A stretch of 37,496 bases of DNA from IMG/VR virus record IMGVR_UViG_3300045988_016114, positions 1 through 37,496 of that record; one strand, given 5' to 3'. A model generated the notes under the pieces. That model was not told the DNA's origin and did no database searches. It worked only from the letters and a program-made list of their open reading frames with translations. Made by a program: the position numbers and the translations under genes. Positions 1 through 37,496 of this stretch are shown here, piece by piece. Each line of letters starts with the position of its first letter. Within the stretch, counting starts at the first letter, position 1. Source of the stretch: a virus.

Positions 1-55
1 CGGACACCCTAGCATTGCCGTACACCCTAGCATTGCCGTACACCCAAGCATCGCC
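1..55. repeat. Terminal direct repeat, identical to 37442..37496 (circular-assembly overlap)
   Basis: Base-for-base identity of cggacaccctagcattgccgtacaccctagcattgccgtacacccaagcatcgcc at both window ends. Confidence 0.95.
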
Positions 56-1760: not shown

Positions 1761-2069
1761 TTAAATATGTAATAATGCGACTTGTTTCAAATTATTTTCT
1801 TTTATATAAGCAAGAACATCTTCTTCCGTCCCCGCTACCACTGTCGCTGTACATCCTTTTGTAACTTTGTCTAAATGGTAGAAATCTTCGTTATTTCTTA
1901 AAAAGAAGTTCGATTTTCCTTTCATGTAATGCGTTGCGTATTCGCCTTTTTTATTGTTCTGATTACCATATCTAAAACTGTCATTTCTATTTCCTCGCTT
2001 TCGTTTGTGTTGTTTTGAGCTTGTAAACTCATAATACAGCCATTTTAAGAGTTTGTCAACCCTTTCCAA
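1761..2069 (-). CDS. Hypothetical first early-operon ORF (start uncertain)
   Basis: 102-aa ORF, but its first codon is TTG with no RBS, and a consensus promoter lies inside its 5' end. Alternative: ATG 1925 (54 aa), coupled by an ATGA overlap to a 20-aa leader ORF at 1922..1984 that has RBS GAGG. Confidence 0.4.
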   Translation of the reverse strand: MERVDKLLKWLYYEFTSSKQHKRKRGNRNDSFRYGNQNNKKGEYATHYMKGKSNFFLRNNEDFYHLDKVTKGCTATVVAGTEEDVLAYIKENNLKQVALLHI

Positions 2070-2103
2070 GAAAATTTATTTTGCTTTTTGAGTTGATAAA
2101 CTC
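2017..2103. promoter_or_regulatory. Three related 14-bp pseudo-palindromic operator candidates in the genetic switch
   Basis: GAGCTTGTAAACTC (2017-2030), GAGTTTGTCAACCC (2049-2062), GAGTTGATAAACTC (2090-2103), pairwise 9-11/14 identical. They overlap the start region and -35 of the leftward promoter and the -35 of the rightward promoter. Confidence 0.55.
2031..2059 (-). promoter_or_regulatory. Early (lytic-direction) sigma-A type promoter
   Basis: Read on the minus strand: TTGACA (2059-2054), 17-nt spacer, TATTAT (2036-2031). Confidence 0.65.
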
Positions 2104-2121
2104 ACAATCATGTGATATAAT
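2093..2121 (+). promoter_or_regulatory. Repressor-gene promoter with extended -10
   Basis: TTGATA (2093-2098), 17-nt spacer, TGaTATAAT (2113-2121). Followed by AGGAGG and the repressor ORF. Confidence 0.7.
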
Positions 2122-2150
2122 ACATATTGTCAGGAGGTGATAATTTGGAA

Positions 2151-2525
2151 ATGTATGAGAGGATAAAGCTCCTCCGAACCGAACAATTACATATGACACA
2201 AACCGAATTTGGAGAAGCTCTCGGAGTAAAACGGGATGTTATAAATAATATTGAAAATAATCGTTTGAAGAATCCGGAAAAGCAAGAACCGATTTATAGG
2301 TTGATGTGTGAAAAATTCAACGTAAGCGACGAATGGCTCCGAACTGGAGAAGGCGAGATGTTTGTTCCGTTAACAAAGAATCAGGTAATTACAGAATTTG
2401 CAGCTGATCTAGTAATGGAAGATAATACATTTAAGAAGCGTCTTTTTGAGGCACTAGCCAAACTTAATGAAAGCGAGTGGGAGGTTCTGGAAAAGCTGGC
2501 TAACAGCTTAATAAAAAAGGACTAG
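2151..2525 (+). CDS. cI-like XRE-family repressor without a peptidase domain
   Basis: HTH LHMTQTEFGEALGVKRDVINNIENNR, then NVSDEWLRTGEGEMF and a helical C-terminal domain. No S24 Ser/Lys motif seen. Start is ATG 2151 or TTG 2145, after GGAGG at 2133-2137. Confidence 0.8.
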   Translation: MYERIKLLRTEQLHMTQTEFGEALGVKRDVINNIENNRLKNPEKQEPIYRLMCEKFNVSDEWLRTGEGEMFVPLTKNQVITEFAADLVMEDNTFKKRLFEALAKLNESEWEVLEKLANSLIKKD

Positions 2526-2539
2526 GGGTCATCCCCTAG
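2522..2539. terminator. Bidirectional intrinsic terminator hairpin
   Basis: CTAGGGG-tcat-CCCCTAG, 7-bp GC-rich stem. T-run follows on the minus strand (TCCTTTTTTATT) and a weaker one on the plus strand (cccagaatcttttt). Confidence 0.7.
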
Positions 2540-2634
2540 CCCAGAATCTTTTTGCAGAATCGGAAAACAAGTTCTAACATTTCTGCGTTATTGGACTTAT
2601 TGACCAATTCAATGATTAATCGCTTATAATCCAT
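2536..2634 (-). CDS. 32-aa micro-ORF downstream of the SOS-box promoter
   Basis: GGAGGG (2647-2642) 7 nt before ATG 2634. MDYKRLIIELVNKSNNAEMLELVFRFCKKILG. Stop lies inside the terminator hairpin. Confidence 0.4.
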   Translation of the reverse strand: MDYKRLIIELVNKSNNAEMLELVFRFCKKILG

Positions 2635-2684
2635 TATGTATCCCTCCGCGCTTTTCGAACAAACTTTCGAAATTCCTTATTGAA

Positions 2685-2713
2685 ATATTACTACACTTCC
2701 AAACATATTTCAA
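2685..2713 (-). promoter_or_regulatory. Promoter for the micro-ORF, embedded in an 11-bp inverted repeat
   Basis: Minus strand: TTGAAA (2713-2708), 17 nt, TAATAT (2690-2685). The inverted repeat TATTGAAATAT / ATATTTCAATA spans both hexamers. Confidence 0.6.
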
Positions 2714-2722
2714 TAGATTTTC

Positions 2723-2736
2723 CGAACATTTGTTCT
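2723..2736. promoter_or_regulatory. LexA (Cheo-box type) operator candidate
   Basis: CGAACATTTGTTCT contains a perfect GAAC-N4-GTTC core. A one-mismatch second copy, CGAACAAACTTTCG, lies at 2656-2669. Confidence 0.5.
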
Positions 2737-2832: not shown

Positions 2833-3030
2833 TTATTTGTATGGAGAATCGATAAGGTCAAAAATTCGCACCTTTAAGCCTTTGGCAAGAATTTCCAGTG
2901 TATCCGCCGATGGTGATACTGTACCATTTGCAATGCGGCTGATCGTAGACTTGGATATGCCAGTCATAATCGAAACTTGCCGAGTAGATAGGTTTTTGTT
3001 TGCCATGATCTTATCGAGTAATATCTTCAT
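2833..3030 (-). CDS. Small XRE-family HTH regulator (65 aa, Cro-sized)
   Basis: LSTRQVSIMTGISKSTISRIANG is a canonical XRE helix-turn-helix. TATAAT at 3042-3037 sits only 6 nt from the ATG and there is no SD, so the mRNA may be leaderless. Confidence 0.8.
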   Translation of the reverse strand: MKILLDKIMANKNLSTRQVSIMTGISKSTISRIANGTVSPSADTLEILAKGLKVRIFDLIDSPYK

Positions 3031-3167: not shown

Positions 3168-4190
3168 ATGGGATTTCGTTTCAGAAAAAGTTTTAAAATT
3201 GCTCCCGGTGTAAAATTTAATCTTAATAAGAAAAGCCATAGCTTTACGTTTGGTGGCAAAGGAATGCATTACACTGTTAATTCCGATGGAAAGCGCACCA
3301 AAAGCTTCGGGATTCCAGGGAGCGGACTGTATTACACAGAAACCAAAAACGGAAAAACTAAAGAAAAGAAGGGGGAAACAATGAGAAAAACAACAAAACA
3401 AAGCGGAGGAGGATGTCTCGGGCTTATCGTCTTACTGATAATGCTATCTGTTGCACTCGCTGCATACTCTCTTTTTTGGATACCTGCTATACCAGTTTTG
3501 ATATACTTCCTTGTGTCCAAAAAATTCCGCGCGTATAGAGTCAGGAATACTGCAATATGCTCAGCTGTGATCATAACATCTCTGATAGTATTTATATGGC
3601 TGAGATCTCCGTCTGAATTGAACTCTATATCCGTAGAATGGGGAAAAGAAGAATTTAATATAGGAGATGTTACAGAGGTAAAAATCACTCCAAGCCCATC
3701 AGATGCAGAAATTGAAACTCTTGAACTATCTGAAAATAACATCGCAACCCTTAAATTTGAGGATGGAAAAGCAATCGTTACATTTGAAAATTCCGGAGAT
3801 GCAGTGCTATTTTTCACAGCAAACAACGATGTCAAAAGTATCTCGAAAACTATTACCGTTATAAACCCAGAAGAAGAAGCGAGATTAAAAGCTAAGGAAG
3901 AAGAACAGATACGTTTGGAACAAGAGGCACAAGCTGCCGAACAAGCAAGAATCGAACAGGAACAAGCTGCTGCCGAGCAGGAAAGAATCGCACAAGAGCA
4001 GGCTGCTGCACAAGCAGCACAAGAACAGGCTACACAACAAAGCCAAGAAGATCCTATTGTATATGTAACAAATACCGGCGCTAAATACCATAGATCCGGA
4101 TGCAGAACTTTAAAATCACAAATAGAAAAACATTTGTCCGAGGTTCGCGGTTACTACGAACCTTGCGGAATTTGCAACCCTCCGCAATAA
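3168..4190 (+). CDS. DUF4236-type membrane protein with coiled coil and C-terminal Cys motif (moron candidate)
   Basis: N-terminus MGFRFRKSFKIAPGVKFNLNKKSHSFTFG is DUF4236-like. Two or three hydrophobic spans. Q/E/A-rich coiled coil EQEAQAAEQARIEQEQAAAEQERIAQEQ. C-terminus GAKYHRSGCRTLK...YEPCGICNP. Confidence 0.75.
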   Translation: MGFRFRKSFKIAPGVKFNLNKKSHSFTFGGKGMHYTVNSDGKRTKSFGIPGSGLYYTETKNGKTKEKKGETMRKTTKQSGGGCLGLIVLLIMLSVALAAYSLFWIPAIPVLIYFLVSKKFRAYRVRNTAICSAVIITSLIVFIWLRSPSELNSISVEWGKEEFNIGDVTEVKITPSPSDAEIETLELSENNIATLKFEDGKAIVTFENSGDAVLFFTANNDVKSISKTITVINPEEEARLKAKEEEQIRLEQEAQAAEQARIEQEQAAAEQERIAQEQAAAQAAQEQATQQSQEDPIVYVTNTGAKYHRSGCRTLKSQIEKHLSEVRGYYEPCGICNPPQ

Positions 4191-4356: not shown

Positions 4357-5508
4357 ATGCCAAAGAGAAAGAAACACCCCAAATTACCAAATGGATATGG
4401 CTCCATTAAATATCTCGGAAAAAACCGCCGGAATCCTTATGCCGTGCATCCACCAGTTACCGACTACACAGATGAGGGAGTCCCGATCACACCAAAAGCC
4501 CTATGCTATGTAGATGACTGGATGAAAGGATTTATCGTCTTAACATCATATAAAGCTGGCACATACACGAAAGGAGACGAAAGGGATATAATCTTACCTA
4601 TCGATCAGAAAAGCCTTGAAATCATCGCACAGCGCTTGCTGTCTGACTATAACAAAGCACAGGGGATTGCAGAAGAAGAAAACGCGCCAGAAAAGACTTT
4701 TGCAGAAGTGTATAAGGAGTTTTGGAAGTATAAATTTGAAAATGAAAAAGGAAAGAAATTATCTGAATCAAGCAAACGTTCGATTCAGGCAGCCTTTAAA
4801 AATGCCAAAACTCTGCACGACCGCCCATTTAGGGAACTGAGACACGATGATCTGCAATCCGTTGTAGATAACTGCCCTCTAAAACACTCCTCTTTGGAGC
4901 TGATCGTGCATCTATTCCGGCAAATGTATGCTTATGCGGACATCTATGAATTATGTGATAAAGACTACTCTACGCATATTAAAATCAACAAGGAGGATGA
5001 CGATGAATCCGGTGTGCCATTTACTAATAACGACCTTAAAATCTTATGGAATAACAAAGACGATGAAATTGTAGAATTTATCTTGATTATGTGTTATTCC
5101 GGATTCCGGATCCGTGCGTATAAAAACTTAGAGATCAACCTAAAAGAGACATATTTTAAGGGTGGCATAAAAACGAAAGCCAGCAAAGACCGCATTGTCC
5201 CAATCCACTCCGCCATATTTCCTCTTGTCAAACGCAGGCTAAAAGCAAACGGCATATTCCCGAATGCGTACAGCAGCTTTTTAAAAGATATGTCAAATAA
5301 ATTATCGGAATTAGGAATTGAAAAGCACACCCCTCACGACTGTCGACACACATTTTCGGCTCTTTGCGAGAAATACGGTGTAAATGAAAATGACCGTAAG
5401 AGAATGATGGGACATAGCTTTGGGAATGATATTACAAACGCAAAGTATGGTCACCGCACCATTGAAGATCTAAGAAAAGAAATCGAAAAGATAAAAGTTT
5501 GTTACTAA
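4357..5508 (+). CDS. int: Tyrosine integrase (phage integrase family)
   Basis: C-terminal catalytic motifs HDCRHTF (H-x-x-R), MMGHS and YGHRT (Tyr). RBS AAAGGAG. Confidence 0.92.
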   Translation: MPKRKKHPKLPNGYGSIKYLGKNRRNPYAVHPPVTDYTDEGVPITPKALCYVDDWMKGFIVLTSYKAGTYTKGDERDIILPIDQKSLEIIAQRLLSDYNKAQGIAEEENAPEKTFAEVYKEFWKYKFENEKGKKLSESSKRSIQAAFKNAKTLHDRPFRELRHDDLQSVVDNCPLKHSSLELIVHLFRQMYAYADIYELCDKDYSTHIKINKEDDDESGVPFTNNDLKILWNNKDDEIVEFILIMCYSGFRIRAYKNLEINLKETYFKGGIKTKASKDRIVPIHSAIFPLVKRRLKANGIFPNAYSSFLKDMSNKLSELGIEKHTPHDCRHTFSALCEKYGVNENDRKRMMGHSFGNDITNAKYGHRTIEDLRKEIEKIKVCY

Positions 5509-5876: not shown

Positions 5877-6341
5877 ATGAAAAAATACAACTTATCAAAC
5901 ATTATGAAAAGAGCATGGAGAATGGTTAAGAAATTAGGATTCGGAATCTCCGAAGCTTTGAAAAAGGCATGGAAGGAAGCGAAAGCAATGAAAGAAGAAA
6001 TCATCAGGATGACTGTTGTGAGAAATGAAATCTTTATAGTAAACACAACAACTGGAGAAATCAGCGGAAAAACTTACAATGCAAAAGAGTGGCTTAAGAA
6101 GAGTTTTGATGCAAAATGGAACAAAGAAACAAGAACTTGGTTTGCGAAACCGGAAGAAATCAAAGAAGAATTGGCAAAATATCCGGGATACTATGAATCA
6201 TACATCGTTAAAGAAAGCGAAGAAGCTGCAGCGATTGAAAACGATGAAATCATCAAAAAAGAACTTGTAAACAGAAATGATGGTTTTTACTCAAAAAACA
6301 CTCACAAATCAGGAAAAATCACATACTCATTTGTGGGCTAA
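5877..6341 (+). CDS. Hypothetical protein, first gene of the plus-strand cassette
   Basis: 154 aa, RBS AGGAG. Amphipathic N-terminus (KRAWRMVKKLGFGISEALKKAWKEAK), then KTYNAKEWLKKSFDAKWNKETRTWF, a Y..K..LK....W....K.W mini-motif. No function recognised. Confidence 0.7.
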   Translation: MKKYNLSNIMKRAWRMVKKLGFGISEALKKAWKEAKAMKEEIIRMTVVRNEIFIVNTTTGEISGKTYNAKEWLKKSFDAKWNKETRTWFAKPEEIKEELAKYPGYYESYIVKESEEAAAIENDEIIKKELVNRNDGFYSKNTHKSGKITYSFVG

Positions 6342-6388
6342 TAACAAAATGCTGACCTACCGGCTATACGGGGAGAAGGAGAAGATCT

Positions 6389-6832
6389 ATGGCAGAACTT
6401 AAAGAACTCAGAAAATTTATGAACCTCACACAGAAAGAGCTTGCTGAAAAAACCGGAATGAACATCCGCCAAATACAGAAGCTCGAAAAGGGCGAAATTG
6501 ACGTTAATAACATTACTGCAAAGAATGCGCAGGCTTTATCTAGTGCTCTTGGGTGCAGCGTCGAGGAAATGTTGACATTAGACCTAAATATCTTTACCGA
6601 GGATGCAAAACAATCCTTGAAAGATGGAGAATTAGATTTGCGCAATCTATTAAGAATGGACAAGTACCAGAAAATAAAAAAACTCAGTAAGATTGGAAGC
6701 TTTGAAAACACCTTTTACGAAAATTACAAATGGATCCCGGAATCTTTGTTTGATAAGTTGACACCGGATGAACTTGCAAATCTCGTAGATAGCTTTTATG
6801 ATTGTTATAGTGCAGGGAAAAATGCAAGATAA
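6389..6832 (+). CDS. Two-domain protein: N-terminal XRE HTH plus unknown C-terminal domain
   Basis: LTQKELAEKTGMNIRQIQKLEKGE is an XRE HTH. About 80 further residues have no recognised domain. RBS GGAGAAGGAG. Confidence 0.8.
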   Translation: MAELKELRKFMNLTQKELAEKTGMNIRQIQKLEKGEIDVNNITAKNAQALSSALGCSVEEMLTLDLNIFTEDAKQSLKDGELDLRNLLRMDKYQKIKKLSKIGSFENTFYENYKWIPESLFDKLTPDELANLVDSFYDCYSAGKNAR

Positions 6833-6847
6833 AAGGAGTTGTTTAAG

Positions 6848-7495
6848 TTGATTGATATGATTGGTAAAAAATTTGGCAAATTAACGGTTATCAAAAAAAC
6901 AAGCGCGACTAAGAATGGGTCTATAGTATGGGAGTGCGAATGTGCTTGTGGAAAAACACGTCTCGCAACATCTAGAGAATTAAATAGCGGTAGCGTAAAA
7001 AGTTGCGGTTGTCTTAGAAAAAAAAGGTATGATTTAGTAGGTCAAAAATTTGGTAAACTAACCGTCATAAAATCAGAAACGCTAGGATCTCATAGGACAT
7101 TTCTCTGCAAATGCGACTGCGGAAATGAAATTTCTGTGCGCGGAGACAGTCTCAGGCGCGGAAAAACAGTGAGTTGTGGTTGTGCAAAAAGTAGCGAATC
7201 AAAAATAAAATCTCTTAAAGCCGGAAGAAAATTGCAAGAACATACTTCTTCTGTTTTTTACCAAGGAACATTATCCAGAAACAATACTACGGGGTTTAAT
7301 GGCATATCTTTTATAAAAGGGAAGTATCGAGCCTCTATAGGTTATAAAAACAAAACATATTATCTGATATCCGATAGTGATATAGAGATTGCGAAATCCG
7401 TAAGAAAAGAGGCTGATGAAGCTGTAAAAAATGGGACATTTGAAGAATGGTTGCAACAATTTAGAAATAATAATAAAACAAAATCACGGAGGTAA
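6848..7495 (+). CDS. Protein with tandem zinc-ribbon repeats and an AP2-like DNA-binding C-terminus
   Basis: Two copies of FGKLTVIK...W/L-C-x-C-x-CG...SCGC. C-terminus GFNGISFIKGKYRASIGYKNKTYYL looks AP2/integrase-DNA-binding-like. The track start (TTG 6839) abuts the RBS, so TTG 6848 or ATG 6857 is more likely. Confidence 0.7.
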   Translation: MIDMIGKKFGKLTVIKKTSATKNGSIVWECECACGKTRLATSRELNSGSVKSCGCLRKKRYDLVGQKFGKLTVIKSETLGSHRTFLCKCDCGNEISVRGDSLRRGKTVSCGCAKSSESKIKSLKAGRKLQEHTSSVFYQGTLSRNNTTGFNGISFIKGKYRASIGYKNKTYYLISDSDIEIAKSVRKEADEAVKNGTFEEWLQQFRNNNKTKSRR

Positions 7496-7499
7496 TAAA

Positions 7500-7754
7500 A
7501 TGCAAAGAAATATTGTTGATTTATTTGAGGACGCGCTGTCTTCTGAAGACTACCGATTTAAAATTTCTTTTTTAGTTGGCGGTTTAGTATCTTACGAATC
7601 GAATGATACGGCTGAAAAGCAAGCTCAATCTACTAAATATCTCGAAGAGATTCTCGATTACATCACGTCTCTCAATGAGAATGATTCTGAAAAAAGCGAA
7701 TTTATCCATCATATCAAAGGGACAATTGAGCGCTATTTGAACTGGGAAGAATAA
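7500..7754 (+). CDS. Hypothetical acidic protein (84 aa), last gene of the cassette
   Basis: ATG 7500 is preceded by GGAGG (7489-7493). The track start at 7431 overlaps the upstream gene and has no RBS. Confidence 0.6.
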   Translation: MQRNIVDLFEDALSSEDYRFKISFLVGGLVSYESNDTAEKQAQSTKYLEEILDYITSLNENDSEKSEFIHHIKGTIERYLNWEE

Positions 7755-20917: not shown

Positions 20918-21046
20918 GCTTCATTCTCCTTTCGTGTTAGGTAGTTTTAGGCGTGTTACCATCCGCCACGAATTGACTGTTTAAGGTCTAATCAACTGAC
21001 CAAAAGGCATAAAAATAACACATATCTCTATGTGCCAATGTCTTAC

Positions 21047-28452: not shown

Positions 28453-28525
28453 CAGGCGCAATCGGAATTGAACCGATGACATATGGTTTTGGAGACCATC
28501 GCTCTGCCAACTGAGCTATACACCC
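28453..28525 (-). tRNA. trnW: tRNA-Trp (anticodon CCA)
   Basis: Hand-folded cloverleaf: GGGTGTA TA GCTC AGTTGGCA GAGC G ATGGT CTCCAAA ACCAT ATGTC ATCGG TTCAATT CCGAT TGCGCCT G. All arms pair. The acceptor stem has three G.U pairs. CCA is not encoded. Confidence 0.8.
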
Positions 28526-28746
28526 ATAGGATGCCTTTTATTGACATCCTTTCCCCTATCCGCACTCGAGGACTAAAACACTAAATATAGATCATGTCTA
28601 CTTGTTTACTTGGCAGATCTGCGGATATCTGCCTTTTGTGATATCACATCGTAGCACTTCCACGGCATTCCGGATTTTTAATATTTACCGTGATATGCTA
28701 CTAAGCCATGTGCAGGAGTTGAACCTGCTTATCCATTCATGGCATG

Positions 28747-37160: not shown

Positions 37161-37496
37161 CTATGCTTCCTCCTTCGAAAATCTAAATTCCATAAGCTCT
37201 GCAACCATCAAATACTCTTTCGCAGTCTTAGTTTCCCCATGCGTTTCCTTTACCTTTGCTCTAAACTCCTCCAAAGTGCCATAAAAGCAACCACATCTCA
37301 CGCCAATATCTCCTGCTTTTGTCCTAAAAAATGTAGTTGTACGATATTCGGAGCCAAATCCATGCACTGTGGCGTAGTCAGCATTGCCGTACACCCTAGC
37401 ATCGCCGAACACCCAAGCATCGCCGTACACCCAAGCATCGCCGGACACCCTAGCATTGCCGTACACCCTAGCATTGCCGTACACCCAAGCATCGCC
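37161..37496 (-). CDS. C-terminal part of the hexapeptide-repeat protein (continues from 199..1)
   Basis: GDAWVYGNARVYGNARVSGDAWVYGDAWVFGDARVYGNA, then a globular C-terminus HGFGSEYRTTTFFRTKAGDIGVRCGCFYGTLEEFRAKVKETHG. The frame is open to the window end. Confidence 0.8.
   Translation of the reverse strand, partial: GDAWVYGNARVYGNARVSGDAWVYGDAWVFGDARVYGNADYATVHGFGSEYRTTTFFRTKAGDIGVRCGCFYGTLEEFRAKVKETHGETKTAKEYLMVAELMEFRFSKEEA
37381..37496. repeat. 18-nt tandem coding repeat (6.4 units)
   Basis: Units gcaTtgccgtacaccCTa / gcaTCgccgKacaccCAa encode V-Y/S/F-G-N/D-A-R/W. The contig break falls inside this array. Confidence 0.9.

What the first reader, a model, noticed from the sequence alone, without database searches (positions are those of the whole stretch)
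2536..2736. LexA-type SOS boxes bracket a promoter that drives a 32-aa micro-ORF convergently into the repressor gene
Seen in sequence:
- A minus-strand promoter, TTGAAA-17-TAATAT (2713-2685), sits inside an 11-bp inverted repeat.
- A perfect GAAC-N4-GTTC site (CGAACATTTGTTCT, 2723-2736) lies about 10 nt upstream of the -35.
- A one-mismatch copy (CGAACAAACTTTCG, 2656-2669) lies in the transcribed leader.
- Next come GGAGGG, ATG 2634 and 32 codons (MDYKRLIIELVNKSNNAEMLELVFRFCKKILG).
- The stop falls inside the hairpin shared with the 3' end of the cI-like gene.

Established knowledge: GAAC-N4-GTTC is the LexA operator core in Firmicutes. Temperate phages whose repressors lack a RecA-cleavable S24 domain commonly couple induction to SOS through LexA-controlled small antirepressors, such as coliphage 186 Tum, Gifsy phages and N15.

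Inference: the 125-aa repressor here shows no peptidase domain. This unit could therefore be the SOS sensor, acting either through the peptide as an antirepressor or through convergent, antisense transcription against the repressor mRNA.
Basis: partly seen in the sequence, partly recalled or inferred. Interest (0 to 1): 0.7.

Follow-up and report, generated by a model that had tools for sequence, protein, structure and literature searches.

The report
SOS-controlled mini anti-repressor of gut phages
A gut-bacterial virus carries a tiny 32-amino-acid gene, switched on by DNA damage, that most likely disables the virus's own dormancy repressor; the same design is common in viruses of human-gut Lachnospiraceae and matches a mechanism shown only recently in Bacillus viruses.

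Summary
The only perfect GAAC-N4-GTTC in the window (2724-2735) and a one-mismatch copy (2656-2669) flank a minus-strand promoter (TTGAAA-17-TAATAT). An RBS, a 32-codon ORF and an intrinsic terminator follow. Two such boxes within 100 bp arose by chance in 1 of 1000 simulations.

Comparison with more than 110 related loci shows a conserved cassette. It is always convergent with the 3' end of a short XRE repressor that has no peptidase domain. It occurs in prophages of about 24 Lachnospiraceae/Clostridia species.

- Box 1 has the same core as experimentally validated Clostridioides difficile LexA operators.
- The micro-ORF is under purifying selection (pN/pS 0.15, against about 1.2 in the other frames).
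- It belongs to one fast-evolving helix-turn-helix peptide family with no Pfam, PHROG or PDB match.
- Peptide type tracks the repressor's C-terminal helical domain.
- 43 of 44 alleles end in a terminator, so transcription should stop at the end of the repressor gene.

Best explanation: a LexA-repressed small anti-repressor that binds the repressor's C-terminal oligomerisation domain. This is analogous to AimX-AimC of Bacillus arbitrium phages (2025 preprint) but has no arbitrium genes and no detectable homology. The anti-repressor step is inferred, not shown. I call it a new variant of a known kind.

The parts
2723..2736 (.). LexA box 1 (CGAACATTTGTTCT; on the minus strand AGAACAAATGTTCG). It is centred about -51 from the inferred transcription start and ends 9 nt upstream of the -35.
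   Evidence: It holds the only perfect GAAC-N4-GTTC in the window. A perfect box sits at the same position in 65 of 70 loci that were recovered through a neighbouring protein only. The core GAACAAATGTT(C/T) equals the SPR-validated C. difficile recA and lexA operators.
2685..2713 (-). Sigma-A-type promoter of the micro-ORF: -35 TTGAAA (2713-2708), 17-nt spacer, -10 TAATAT (2690-2685). The start near 2678 is inferred.
   Evidence: The -35 and -10 blocks are conserved in 64 distinct cassettes while the spacer is not.
2678..2715 (.). 11-bp perfect inverted repeat (2678-2688 and 2705-2715) bracketing the -10. Its function is unknown.
   Evidence: By my reading of the alignment, other cassette variants carry different inverted repeats at the same place.
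2656..2669 (.). LexA box 2 (CGAACAAACTTTCG, one mismatch) in the transcribed leader. It is centred about +15, with a 67-bp centre-to-centre distance from box 1.
   Evidence: A second box with at most one mismatch lies 60-72 bp downstream of box 1 in 61 of 70 unbiased loci. Its sequence varies but keeps GAAC-N4-GTT(C/T).
2669..2678 (-). Nearly invariant leader motif AAGGAATTTC, immediately 5' of box 2. Its role is unexplained.
   Evidence: high information content across 64 cassettes.
2642..2647 (-). Ribosome-binding site GGAGGG, 7 nt before the ATG.
   Evidence: A GGAGG block is conserved in all cassettes.
2536..2634 (-). Micro-ORF of 32 aa (MDYKRLIIELVNKSNNAEMLELVFRFCKKILG), the putative small anti-repressor.
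   Evidence: Pooled pN/pS is 0.15, against 1.2 in the other frames. AlphaFold2 gives helix 3-14, a turn, then helix 17-31, at pLDDT 82.7. It belongs to one alignable family of 30-42-aa peptides. The exact peptide is on 44 public contigs, always as 'hypothetical protein'.
2509..2542 (-). Intrinsic terminator of the micro-ORF transcript: a 10-bp stem (2542-2519) then TTTTTTATTA (2518-2509). It overlaps both stop codons and the last codons of the repressor gene.
   Evidence: An equivalent terminator follows 43 of 44 distinct peptide alleles. Its U-tract is the antisense of the repressor's C-terminal lysine codons.
2145..2525 (+). Immunity repressor: XRE helix-turn-helix domain, conserved EWLRTGEGEMF linker and a three-helix C-terminal domain. 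It has no peptidase domain and is the proposed target of the peptide.
   Evidence: Pfam finds only HTH_3 and HTH_19. The AlphaFold2 model has pLDDT 83.7, with helices 2-66, a linker at 67-76, and helices 77-90, 94-104 and 108-123. Homologues are named from M. gnavus and Faecalimonas.
2017..2121 (.). Immunity switch region. It holds three GAGTT-N4-AACTC operators (2017-2030, 2049-2062, 2090-2103). They overlap the divergent promoters: plus-strand TTGATA-17-TATAAT at 2093-2121 for the repressor, and minus-strand TTGACA-17-TATTAT at 2059-2031 for the early lytic genes.
   Evidence: No such operator lies at the micro-ORF promoter.

Best explanation
This is a LexA-repressed transcription unit that encodes a 32-aa anti-repressor.

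In a lysogen, host LexA binds two Cheo-type boxes. One lies just upstream of the -35 and one in the early transcribed region. Together they keep the promoter shut. The 126-aa XRE repressor, which RecA cannot make cleave itself, holds the early lytic promoter off through three GAGTT-N4-AACTC operators.

DNA damage leads to LexA self-cleavage. The short mRNA is then made and ends at its own terminator. The helix-turn-helix peptide is translated and binds the repressor's C-terminal helical (oligomerisation) domain. That gives hetero-complexes unable to bind the operators cooperatively, so the lytic operon is derepressed.

Shown by sequence and comparison: the boxes, promoter, RBS, ORF and terminator; their conservation; purifying selection on the peptide; and peptide/C-terminal-domain co-variation.

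Inferred: LexA binding, peptide-repressor binding, and the effect on induction.
For: 1. The unit is complete and compact. Two boxes this close arise by chance in 1 of 1000 simulations.

2. Box conservation. In 70 loci recovered only through the neighbouring 65-aa HTH protein, 65 have a perfect box 1 and 61 also have box 2 at a fixed distance. Across 64 distinct cassettes the boxes, -35, -10 and RBS are conserved, while the spacer and flanks are not.

3. LexA identity. Box 1 core GAACAAATGTTC matches the SPR-validated C. difficile operators of recA (GAGAACAAATGTTTGT), lexA and uvrB. Box 2 variants fit the Clostridial GAAC-N4-GTT(T/C) pattern.

4. The boxes persist where the upstream HTH gene is absent, so they are not that protein's operators. 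They also persist beside repressors of quite different sequence, which points to a host factor.

5. The micro-ORF is a real gene. Pooled pN/pS is 0.15, against 1.21 and 1.26 in the other frames. All types align as one helix-turn-helix family.

6. The cassette always abuts, convergently, the 3' end of a short XRE repressor. Peptide clusters map almost one-to-one to C-terminal-domain clusters (11 against 10). The same peptide/C-terminal-domain type occurs with different DNA-binding N-domains.

7. These are the only LexA-type boxes in the phage. No ImmA-type protease or S24 domain was found.

8. RG-TP1 has the same layout. Its record gives 'antibiotic induction' as the source, and its paper used mitomycin C.

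9. Experimental precedent exists for the same architecture. phi106 AimX is a 29-aa ORF just downstream of a LexA site, convergent with aimC. It binds the AimC oligomerisation domain and blocks DNA binding.
Against: - There is no experiment on this phage or its hosts.
- No LexA matrix was derived from Lachnospiraceae SOS genes. The identification rests on C. difficile and B. subtilis motifs.
- Peptide/C-terminal-domain linkage could reflect physical adjacency alone. The two lie 10 nt apart with no conserved sequence between them where recombination could occur.
- The peptide shows no significant similarity to the repressor C-terminus (hhalign P 0.009-0.017). It shows no cognate-specific similarity either (permutation p 0.81). 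A SinI-like mimicry origin is therefore unsupported.
- Neither the peptide nor the C-terminal domain is detectably homologous to AimX or AimC.
- Box 2 is degenerate, or shortened by 1-2 nt, in some variants.
Confidence: 0.65

Rival explanations
1. The unit acts as RNA. SOS-induced convergent transcription, or a cis-antisense RNA, interferes with repressor mRNA synthesis or stability, and the ORF is incidental.
For: The transcript converges on the repressor gene, and the two share a hairpin. Antisense action was the earlier proposal for aimX.
Against: - A strong intrinsic terminator (10-bp stem, T6) ends the transcript inside the last codons of the repressor gene, and 43 of 44 alleles have one. 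Overlap would be only about 20-30 nt.
- The ORF is under clear purifying selection at the protein level.
- In phi106, recoded and stop-codon alleles excluded an RNA effect.
Confidence: 0.07
2. The peptide is SOS-induced but targets something other than the phage repressor. Candidates are LexA or RecA (as with GIL01 gp7 or Listeria AriS), cell division, or a membrane (a type I toxin such as TisB).
For: LexA-controlled small proteins with such roles exist (my own knowledge for TisB, DinQ and YneA). No physical evidence links the peptide to the repressor here.
Against: - Peptide sequence type changes in step with the repressor's C-terminal domain, not with conserved host proteins.
- The gene is always placed against the repressor gene, whatever lies upstream.
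- The peptides are 20-45% charged, and none of the 30 tested has a hydrophobic stretch of transmembrane strength (largest 19-aa Kyte-Doolittle mean 1.02).
Confidence: 0.15
3. The GAAC-N4-GTTC palindromes are operators of a phage regulator rather than of host LexA. Candidates are the upstream 65-aa HTH protein or the repressor itself.
For: The 65-aa HTH gene sits directly upstream in about three quarters of loci. RG-TP1's own switch region is rich in TTCGAA motifs.
Against: - About 12 of 49 cassettes have no HTH-65 homologue upstream yet keep the boxes.
- The window repressor's operators are GAGTT-N4-AACTC, and none lies near the micro-ORF promoter.
- The boxes are the same beside repressors of very different sequence.
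- The box sequence equals validated LexA operators.
Confidence: 0.05
4. It is a chance arrangement of AT-rich motifs and a spurious ORF.
For: A single perfect box is expected about 0.5 times per window. Promoter-like hits are common in AT-rich DNA.
Against: Two boxes this close arise by chance in 1 of 1000 simulations. The whole cassette is conserved in more than 110 loci. pN/pS is 0.15.
Confidence: 0.01

Closest known systems
AimX-AimC module of 'extended' arbitrium systems in Bacillus phages (phi106, BMBtp14, Wbeta, Waukesha92). Source: Kabel et al., bioRxiv 10.1101/2025.11.23.689978; PDB 9iaq and 9sf2.
   Same: - A tiny ORF (29-80 aa; 29 aa in phi106) lies just downstream of a LexA site. 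It is convergent with, and overlaps, the 3' end of a short (80-140 aa) XRE repressor that has no autocleavage domain.
- A cro-like divergent partner is present.
- The peptide and the repressor are highly divergent and co-vary.
- The repressor is built as an HTH domain, a linker and a helical C-terminal oligomerisation domain.

   Different: - There is no AimR receptor or AimP peptide here. Upstream genes are a 65-aa HTH, lipoproteins or channels, so LexA appears to be the only input.
- Two LexA boxes flank the promoter.
- The hosts are Clostridia (Lachnospiraceae), not Bacilli.
- No sequence homology to AimX or to the AimC C-terminal domain was detected. Foldseek similarity to 9iaq and 9sf2 is weak, at E about 0.15-0.2.
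- The authors found very few aimC/aimL homologues outside arbitrium systems in Bacillus.
SinI-SinR of Bacillus subtilis
   Same: A small helical antagonist binds the C-terminal helical multimerisation domain of an XRE/434-like repressor. SinR/SinI (1b0n) is the second-ranked Foldseek hit of the repressor model, and the match covers its full length.
   Different: - SinI is a homologue of the SinR C-terminal helices. Here peptide-to-C-terminus similarity is not significant, and there is no match to Pfam SinI.
- SinI/SinR is chromosomal and developmental, and (from my own knowledge) not under LexA control.
LexA-controlled anti-repressors of phages with non-cleavable repressors: coliphage 186 Tum, Gifsy GfoA/GfhA, N15 AntC, and Sar of SPbeta/phi3T
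   Same: The logic is the same. Host LexA represses a phage anti-repressor gene, and the anti-repressor inactivates a repressor without proteolysis and with cognate specificity.
   Different: - From my own knowledge, those proteins are larger (Tum is 146 aa) and are encoded elsewhere in their genomes.
- Sar targets an integrase-fold repressor (SroF) by DNA mimicry.
- Here the peptide is 32 aa, sits tail-to-tail with its presumed target gene, and is predicted to act on an oligomerisation domain.
TF-smORF modules of Vibrio linear plasmid-like phages (Silpe et al., Nature 2023)
   Same: A small phage protein inactivates the cI repressor without proteolysis and with cognate specificity. A transcription-factor gene lies next to the small ORF.
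   Different: - Those modules are SOS-independent. They are activated by a divergently transcribed transcription factor or by quorum sensing, and their cI repressors are also RecA-cleavable.
- Here control is by LexA boxes, and the neighbouring 65-aa HTH gene is dispensable.

Membership tests
LexA (SOS) regulon promoter of Firmicutes (Cheo box) | An operator matching CGAAC-N4-GTTCG, or the Clostridial GAAC-N4-GTT(C/T), that overlaps or flanks a promoter | tested here: met
   Box 1 matches 13 of 14 positions with a perfect core. Box 2 has one mismatch. They flank the -35/-10. The core is identical to validated C. difficile recA and lexA operators.
LexA (SOS) regulon promoter of Firmicutes (Cheo box) | Conservation of the operator across orthologous promoters (phylogenetic footprint) | tested here: met
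   65 of 70 unbiased loci have box 1, and 61 of 70 have both. The boxes are conserved while the spacer and flanks diverge.
LexA (SOS) regulon promoter of Firmicutes (Cheo box) | LexA binding and DNA-damage-inducible transcription | not testable with these tools
   This needs EMSA or SPR with Lachnospiraceae LexA, and RNA-seq or 5'-RACE with and without mitomycin C. The only indirect support is that RG-TP1 is recorded as obtained by antibiotic induction.
AimX-AimC small anti-repressor/repressor module (extended arbitrium) | A small ORF convergent with, or overlapping, the 3' end of a short XRE repressor without an autocleavage domain, plus a divergent cro-like early operon | tested here: met
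   compared.
AimX-AimC small anti-repressor/repressor module (extended arbitrium) | AimR receptor and AimP signal genes upstream of the small ORF | tested here: not met
   The only AimR model match is a faint one to the 65-aa HTH's N-terminus (16 bits against a cut-off of 70). Upstream genes are a 65-aa HTH and a DUF4236 protein. Other loci have lipoproteins or channels there.
AimX-AimC small anti-repressor/repressor module (extended arbitrium) | Sequence or fold homology to AimC and AimX | tested here: not met
   The peptide profile has no PDB hit, although the phi106 repressor-AimX complex 9sf2 is in the library. The repressor profile hits 9sf2_A at only E = 0.15, though over nearly its full length. 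The C-terminal-only profile does not hit it. Foldseek gives E 0.15-0.2.
AimX-AimC small anti-repressor/repressor module (extended arbitrium) | The peptide binds the repressor's C-terminal oligomerisation domain and abolishes operator binding | not testable with these tools
The only support is co-variation of peptide type with C-terminal-domain type.
SinI/SinR | The antagonist is homologous to the repressor's C-terminal helices (Sin domain) | tested here: not met
   hhalign does place the peptide on the last two C-terminal helices, but only at P 0.009-0.017 and probability below 5%. There is no cognate-specific similarity (p 0.81) and no Pfam SinI hit.
Type I toxin (SOS-induced small membrane peptide such as TisB or DinQ) | A hydrophobic transmembrane helix | tested here: not met
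   The largest 19-aa Kyte-Doolittle mean is 1.02 or less, and 20-45% of residues are charged, in all 30 family members tested.

The most novel reading that the evidence does not exclude
A large, unannotated family of 30-42-aa LexA-controlled peptides is the general DNA-damage induction switch of temperate phages of human-gut Lachnospiraceae. Hosts include M. gnavus, Faecalimonas, Fusicatenibacter and Schaedlerella.

The peptide and the repressor's C-terminal domain form an exchangeable 'induction-specificity' cassette. It recombines independently of the DNA-binding domain at the conserved EWLRTGxGEMF joint. If so, co-resident heteroimmune prophages that share a C-terminal-domain type could be induced in trans by each other's peptide.
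Probability: 0.45. Interest if true: 0.7.

Novelty: new variant of a known kind. Interest (0 to 1): 0.6.

Why it matters
Most gut Firmicutes prophages have short repressors with no RecA-cleavable domain. How they sense DNA damage is largely unknown. Yet antibiotic- and inflammation-driven prophage induction shapes the gut microbiome, and RG-TP1 of M. gnavus is reported as more prevalent in IBD cohorts.

If this cassette is the switch, several things follow.
- A very common class of 'hypothetical' micro-ORFs gets a function. Individual peptide types occur on between 2 and at least 1000 public contigs.
- The just-described AimX-type mechanism extends beyond Bacillus and beyond arbitrium signalling.
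- There is a simple sequence signature for predicting SOS-inducible prophages in Clostridia: two Cheo boxes, a micro-ORF and a convergent XRE gene.
- The repressor appears modular, with DNA specificity and induction specificity exchanged separately.

Tried and rejected
- **SinI-like origin or mimicry.** The peptide profile aligns to the last two repressor helices, but not significantly. Cognate pairs are no more similar than non-cognate pairs.
- **HTH-65 as the box-binding regulator or an obligatory partner.** Rejected, because cassettes exist without it.
- **Known RNA family.** Rfam finds nothing in 2500-2800.
- **Known protein family for the peptide.** Pfam gives nothing above its cut-offs. 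PHROGs gives one weak match to an unannotated family for one peptide type and none for the window's own. The PDB search returns only designed helical bundles.
- **ImmA-type protease or S24 domain elsewhere in the phage.** None found.
- **Homology of the repressor C-terminal domain to AimC, from a C-terminal-only profile.** No hit.
Full report
**Context.** The window reads as a complete, circularly permuted temperate siphophage genome of about 37.5 kb.
- Structural, lysis and early genes are on the minus strand.
- A plus-strand lysogeny block holds an XRE repressor (2145-2525), a DUF4236 membrane protein (3168-4190) and a tyrosine integrase (4357-5508).
- Its structural genes are about 82% identical to Ruminococcus phage RG-TP1 of Mediterraneibacter gnavus.
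- Repressor homologues are named from M. gnavus and Faecalimonas.
- The repressor gene faces a divergent early operon across a classical switch region. The promoters are TTGATA-17-TATAAT (plus strand, 2093-2121) and TTGACA-17-TATTAT (minus strand, 2059-2031). Three GAGTT-N4-AACTC palindromes overlap them (2017-2030, 2049-2062, 2090-2103).

**Checking the observation.**
- A single perfect GAAC-N4-GTTC is unremarkable: 0.53 are expected per window.
- The two matches to CGAAC-N4-GTTCG with at most one mismatch are the only ones in the window.
- They lie 67 bp apart around a promoter. Two hits within 100 bp arose in 1 of 1000 Markov simulations.
- One correction matters for mechanism. The shared hairpin (2519-2542) followed by TTTTTTATTA on the minus strand is an intrinsic terminator for the micro-ORF transcript.
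- The repressor is 126 aa from TTG 2145, or 124 aa from ATG 2151, not 125 aa.

**Comparative evidence for the cassette.** RG-TP1 has the same layout with a quite different repressor.
- It carries an annotated 33-aa gp44 (MDYKNKIIELINGISNTAKLEYLYYVIRSFLKG). This is 44% identical to the window peptide, although the DNA there no longer aligns.
- I recovered 70 IMG/VR loci through the neighbouring 65-aa HTH protein, a search blind to the boxes. Of these, 65 have a perfect box 1 at the same offset, and 61 also have a second box 60-72 bp further on.
- A DNA-pattern scan added 49 viral cassettes, and about 23 more in GTDB species genomes. All of the latter are Lachnospiraceae or other Clostridia: Mediterraneibacter, Faecalimonas, Muricomes, Fusicatenibacter, Schaedlerella and Lachnoclostridium.
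- In an alignment of 64 distinct cassettes, conservation peaks at box 1 (AGAACAAATGTTCG), the -35, the -10, AAGGAATTTC plus box 2, and the RBS.
- The promoter spacer and the upstream flank are free to vary.
- Part of that set was selected with box 1 in the pattern. The unbiased figures are therefore the 65 of 70 and 61 of 70.

**Why LexA.**
- Box 1 has the same core, including the AAAT spacer, as the SPR-validated C. difficile recA and lexA operators (GAACAAATGTTT). It also resembles the uvrB operator.
- The box 2 variants (GAACATGTGTTT, GAACGTGCGTTC, GAACAACTGTTC and others) fit the Clostridial GAAC-N4-GTT(T/C) pattern.
- The boxes stay the same next to repressors of very different sequence. 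They remain in roughly a quarter of cassettes that have no 65-aa HTH gene upstream.
- The window repressor's own operators are different and are absent from this promoter.
- A host factor is therefore the simplest binder.
- I did not derive a matrix from Lachnospiraceae SOS genes. That remains a gap.

**The micro-ORF is a gene.**
- Within peptide types, pooled pN/pS is 0.15. The same DNA read in the other two frames gives 1.21 and 1.26.
- Thirty representative peptides of 31-42 aa align end to end. The shared pattern is (D/E)(Y/I)K-x-(I/L)I-x-(E/M)(L/M)(I/V), then an acidic or Asn-rich turn, then L-x3-(I/V)Y-x-(F/I)(I/V)(K/R)-x-(F/L)L.
- AlphaFold2 predicts two helices, 3-14 and 17-31, at pLDDT 82.7.
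- None has a transmembrane-strength hydrophobic stretch.
- None matches Pfam above its cut-offs. One type weakly matches an unannotated PHROG, and the window's own peptide matches nothing. The PDB search gives only designed helical proteins.
- The peptides are abundant in public data. The window's exact sequence is on 44 contigs, and one other type is on at least 1000. All are 'hypothetical protein', including RUMGNA_02179 of M. gnavus ATCC 29149.

**Link to the repressor.**
- In every true cassette the micro-ORF is tail-to-tail with a short XRE repressor, whatever lies upstream: HTH-65, lipoprotein, ion channel or DUF4236.
- The repressor model has a five-helix HTH domain (2-66), the conserved EWLRTGEGEMF linker, and three C-terminal helices at lower confidence.
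- The C-terminal domains of the types compared align as one family.
- Peptide clusters correspond almost one-to-one with C-terminal-domain clusters, 11 against 10.
- The same peptide/C-terminal-domain type occurs with different N-terminal DNA-binding domains. Examples are WIN, L027 and L028, and also L003, L004 and L018.
- Homology between cassettes breaks at the micro-ORF start codon and at the linker. The peptide and the C-terminal domain therefore travel as one unit.
- This is what a cognate anti-repressor/target pair predicts. However, the two are only about 10 nt apart, so physical linkage alone could produce the same pattern.

**Terminator.**
- 43 of 44 distinct alleles end in a hairpin plus U-tract on the micro-ORF strand.
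- The hairpin is built from the two convergent stop regions. The U-tract is the antisense of the repressor's C-terminal lysine codons.
- The transcript should therefore stop within the last codons of the repressor gene. This weakens the convergent-transcription and antisense reading.

**Comparison with known systems.** The closest is the AimX-AimC module of 'extended' arbitrium systems in Bacillus phages (bioRxiv 10.1101/2025.11.23.689978).
- In phi106 a 29-aa ORF lies just downstream of a LexA site and overlaps the 3' end of aimC.
- AimX forms a heterodimer with the AimC C-terminal oligomerisation domain and abolishes operator binding.
- Recoded and stop-codon alleles excluded an antisense RNA effect.
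- AimX and AimC co-diverge.
- The present cassette has the same architecture and, I infer, the same mechanism.

It is not a member of that family by the tests I could run.
- There is no AimR or AimP.
- There is no detectable sequence homology of the peptide or the C-terminal domain. 9sf2_A hits the full repressor profile only at E = 0.15, though colinearly over residues 6-113. The C-terminal-only profile finds nothing.
- Foldseek matches to SinR/SinI (1b0n), DdrO, 9iaq and 9sf2 are weak, at E 0.03-0.2, and are driven by the HTH domain.
- Those authors found very few aimC/aimL homologues outside arbitrium in Bacillus.

Other relatives in logic are Sar of SPbeta/phi3T, Tum, the Gifsy anti-repressors and the Vibrio TF-smORF modules.

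**Verdict.**
- The feature is a LexA-controlled micro-gene for a probable anti-repressor.
- It is a LexA-only, arbitrium-free, sequence-unrelated variant of a mechanism described in late 2025.
- It is widespread in human-gut Lachnospiraceae phages.
- My confidence is about 0.85 that it is a LexA-regulated unit.
- It is about 0.9 that the peptide is a functional protein.
- It is about 0.65 that the peptide inactivates the adjacent repressor through its C-terminal domain.

Noticed in passing
window 1761-2069 (minus strand): The first early-lytic gene beside the switch region looks frameshifted. MTVLDMVIRTIKKANTQRIT* (start near 1983) continues in another frame as ...KKGEYATHYMKGKSNFFLRNNEDFYHLDKVTKG.... 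Locus L112 has an intact 76-aa homologue (MKMTVVDMVIGTMRKGEYATHYKKGNSNFF...). This could be a real pseudogene or a sequencing or assembly indel.
   Followed up: partly
window 2833-3030 (minus strand) and 3168-4190 (plus strand): A 65-aa XRE HTH gene has its own terminator-like hairpin (2814-2831). With a divergent DUF4236 membrane protein it forms a conserved accessory module upstream of the cassette. It is present in about three quarters of loci and replaced by unrelated genes in the rest. Its role is unknown.
   Followed up: partly
window 2669-2678 (minus strand: AAGGAATTTC): The 9-10 nt immediately 5' of box 2, at about +1 to +9 of the transcript, are almost invariant across 64 cassettes. 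This is more than a LexA half-site requires. It could be an initial-transcribed-region signal, a second factor's site or a recombination joint.
   Followed up: no
window 2678-2688 and 2705-2715: A perfect 11-bp inverted repeat brackets the -10. By my reading of the alignment, other cassette variants carry different inverted repeats at the same position (TTGATTTC/GAAATCAA, CCCTGA/TCAGGG, CCTTTGT/ACAAAGG). That looks compensatory. It also creates a mirror plus-strand promoter-like site (2680-2709).
   Followed up: partly
repressor genes of window and loci (linker EWLRTGxGEMF; window about 2328-2360): The repressor genes are mosaics. Different HTH N-domains are joined to the same C-terminal domain, and the reverse, at a conserved linker motif. 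This suggests that DNA specificity and induction specificity are exchanged separately.
   Followed up: partly
window 5877-7754 (plus strand): A moron-like block lies between the integrase and the lysin. It holds a 154-aa protein, a third XRE HTH (6389-6832), a Cys-rich 218-aa protein with internal repeats (6839-7495) and a 107-aa ORF. No defence-system or ImmA protease match was found.
   Followed up: partly
window 20938-21001 (minus strand) and 28453-28525 (minus strand): Rfam finds a GP20-b cis-regulatory RNA motif upstream of the structural genes, and a phage-encoded tRNA. The adjacent stretch (window about 28501-28735) matches R. gnavus phage phiRgPS_6 where that record annotates tRNA-Ile.
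   Followed up: no
window 1-55 and 37161-37484: Tandem repeats of about 19 nt sit at the window start. The ORF at the window's other end (37161-37484) has a YdcK beta-solenoid repeat match. The two ends may belong to one repeat-rich gene cut by the circular permutation.
   Followed up: no
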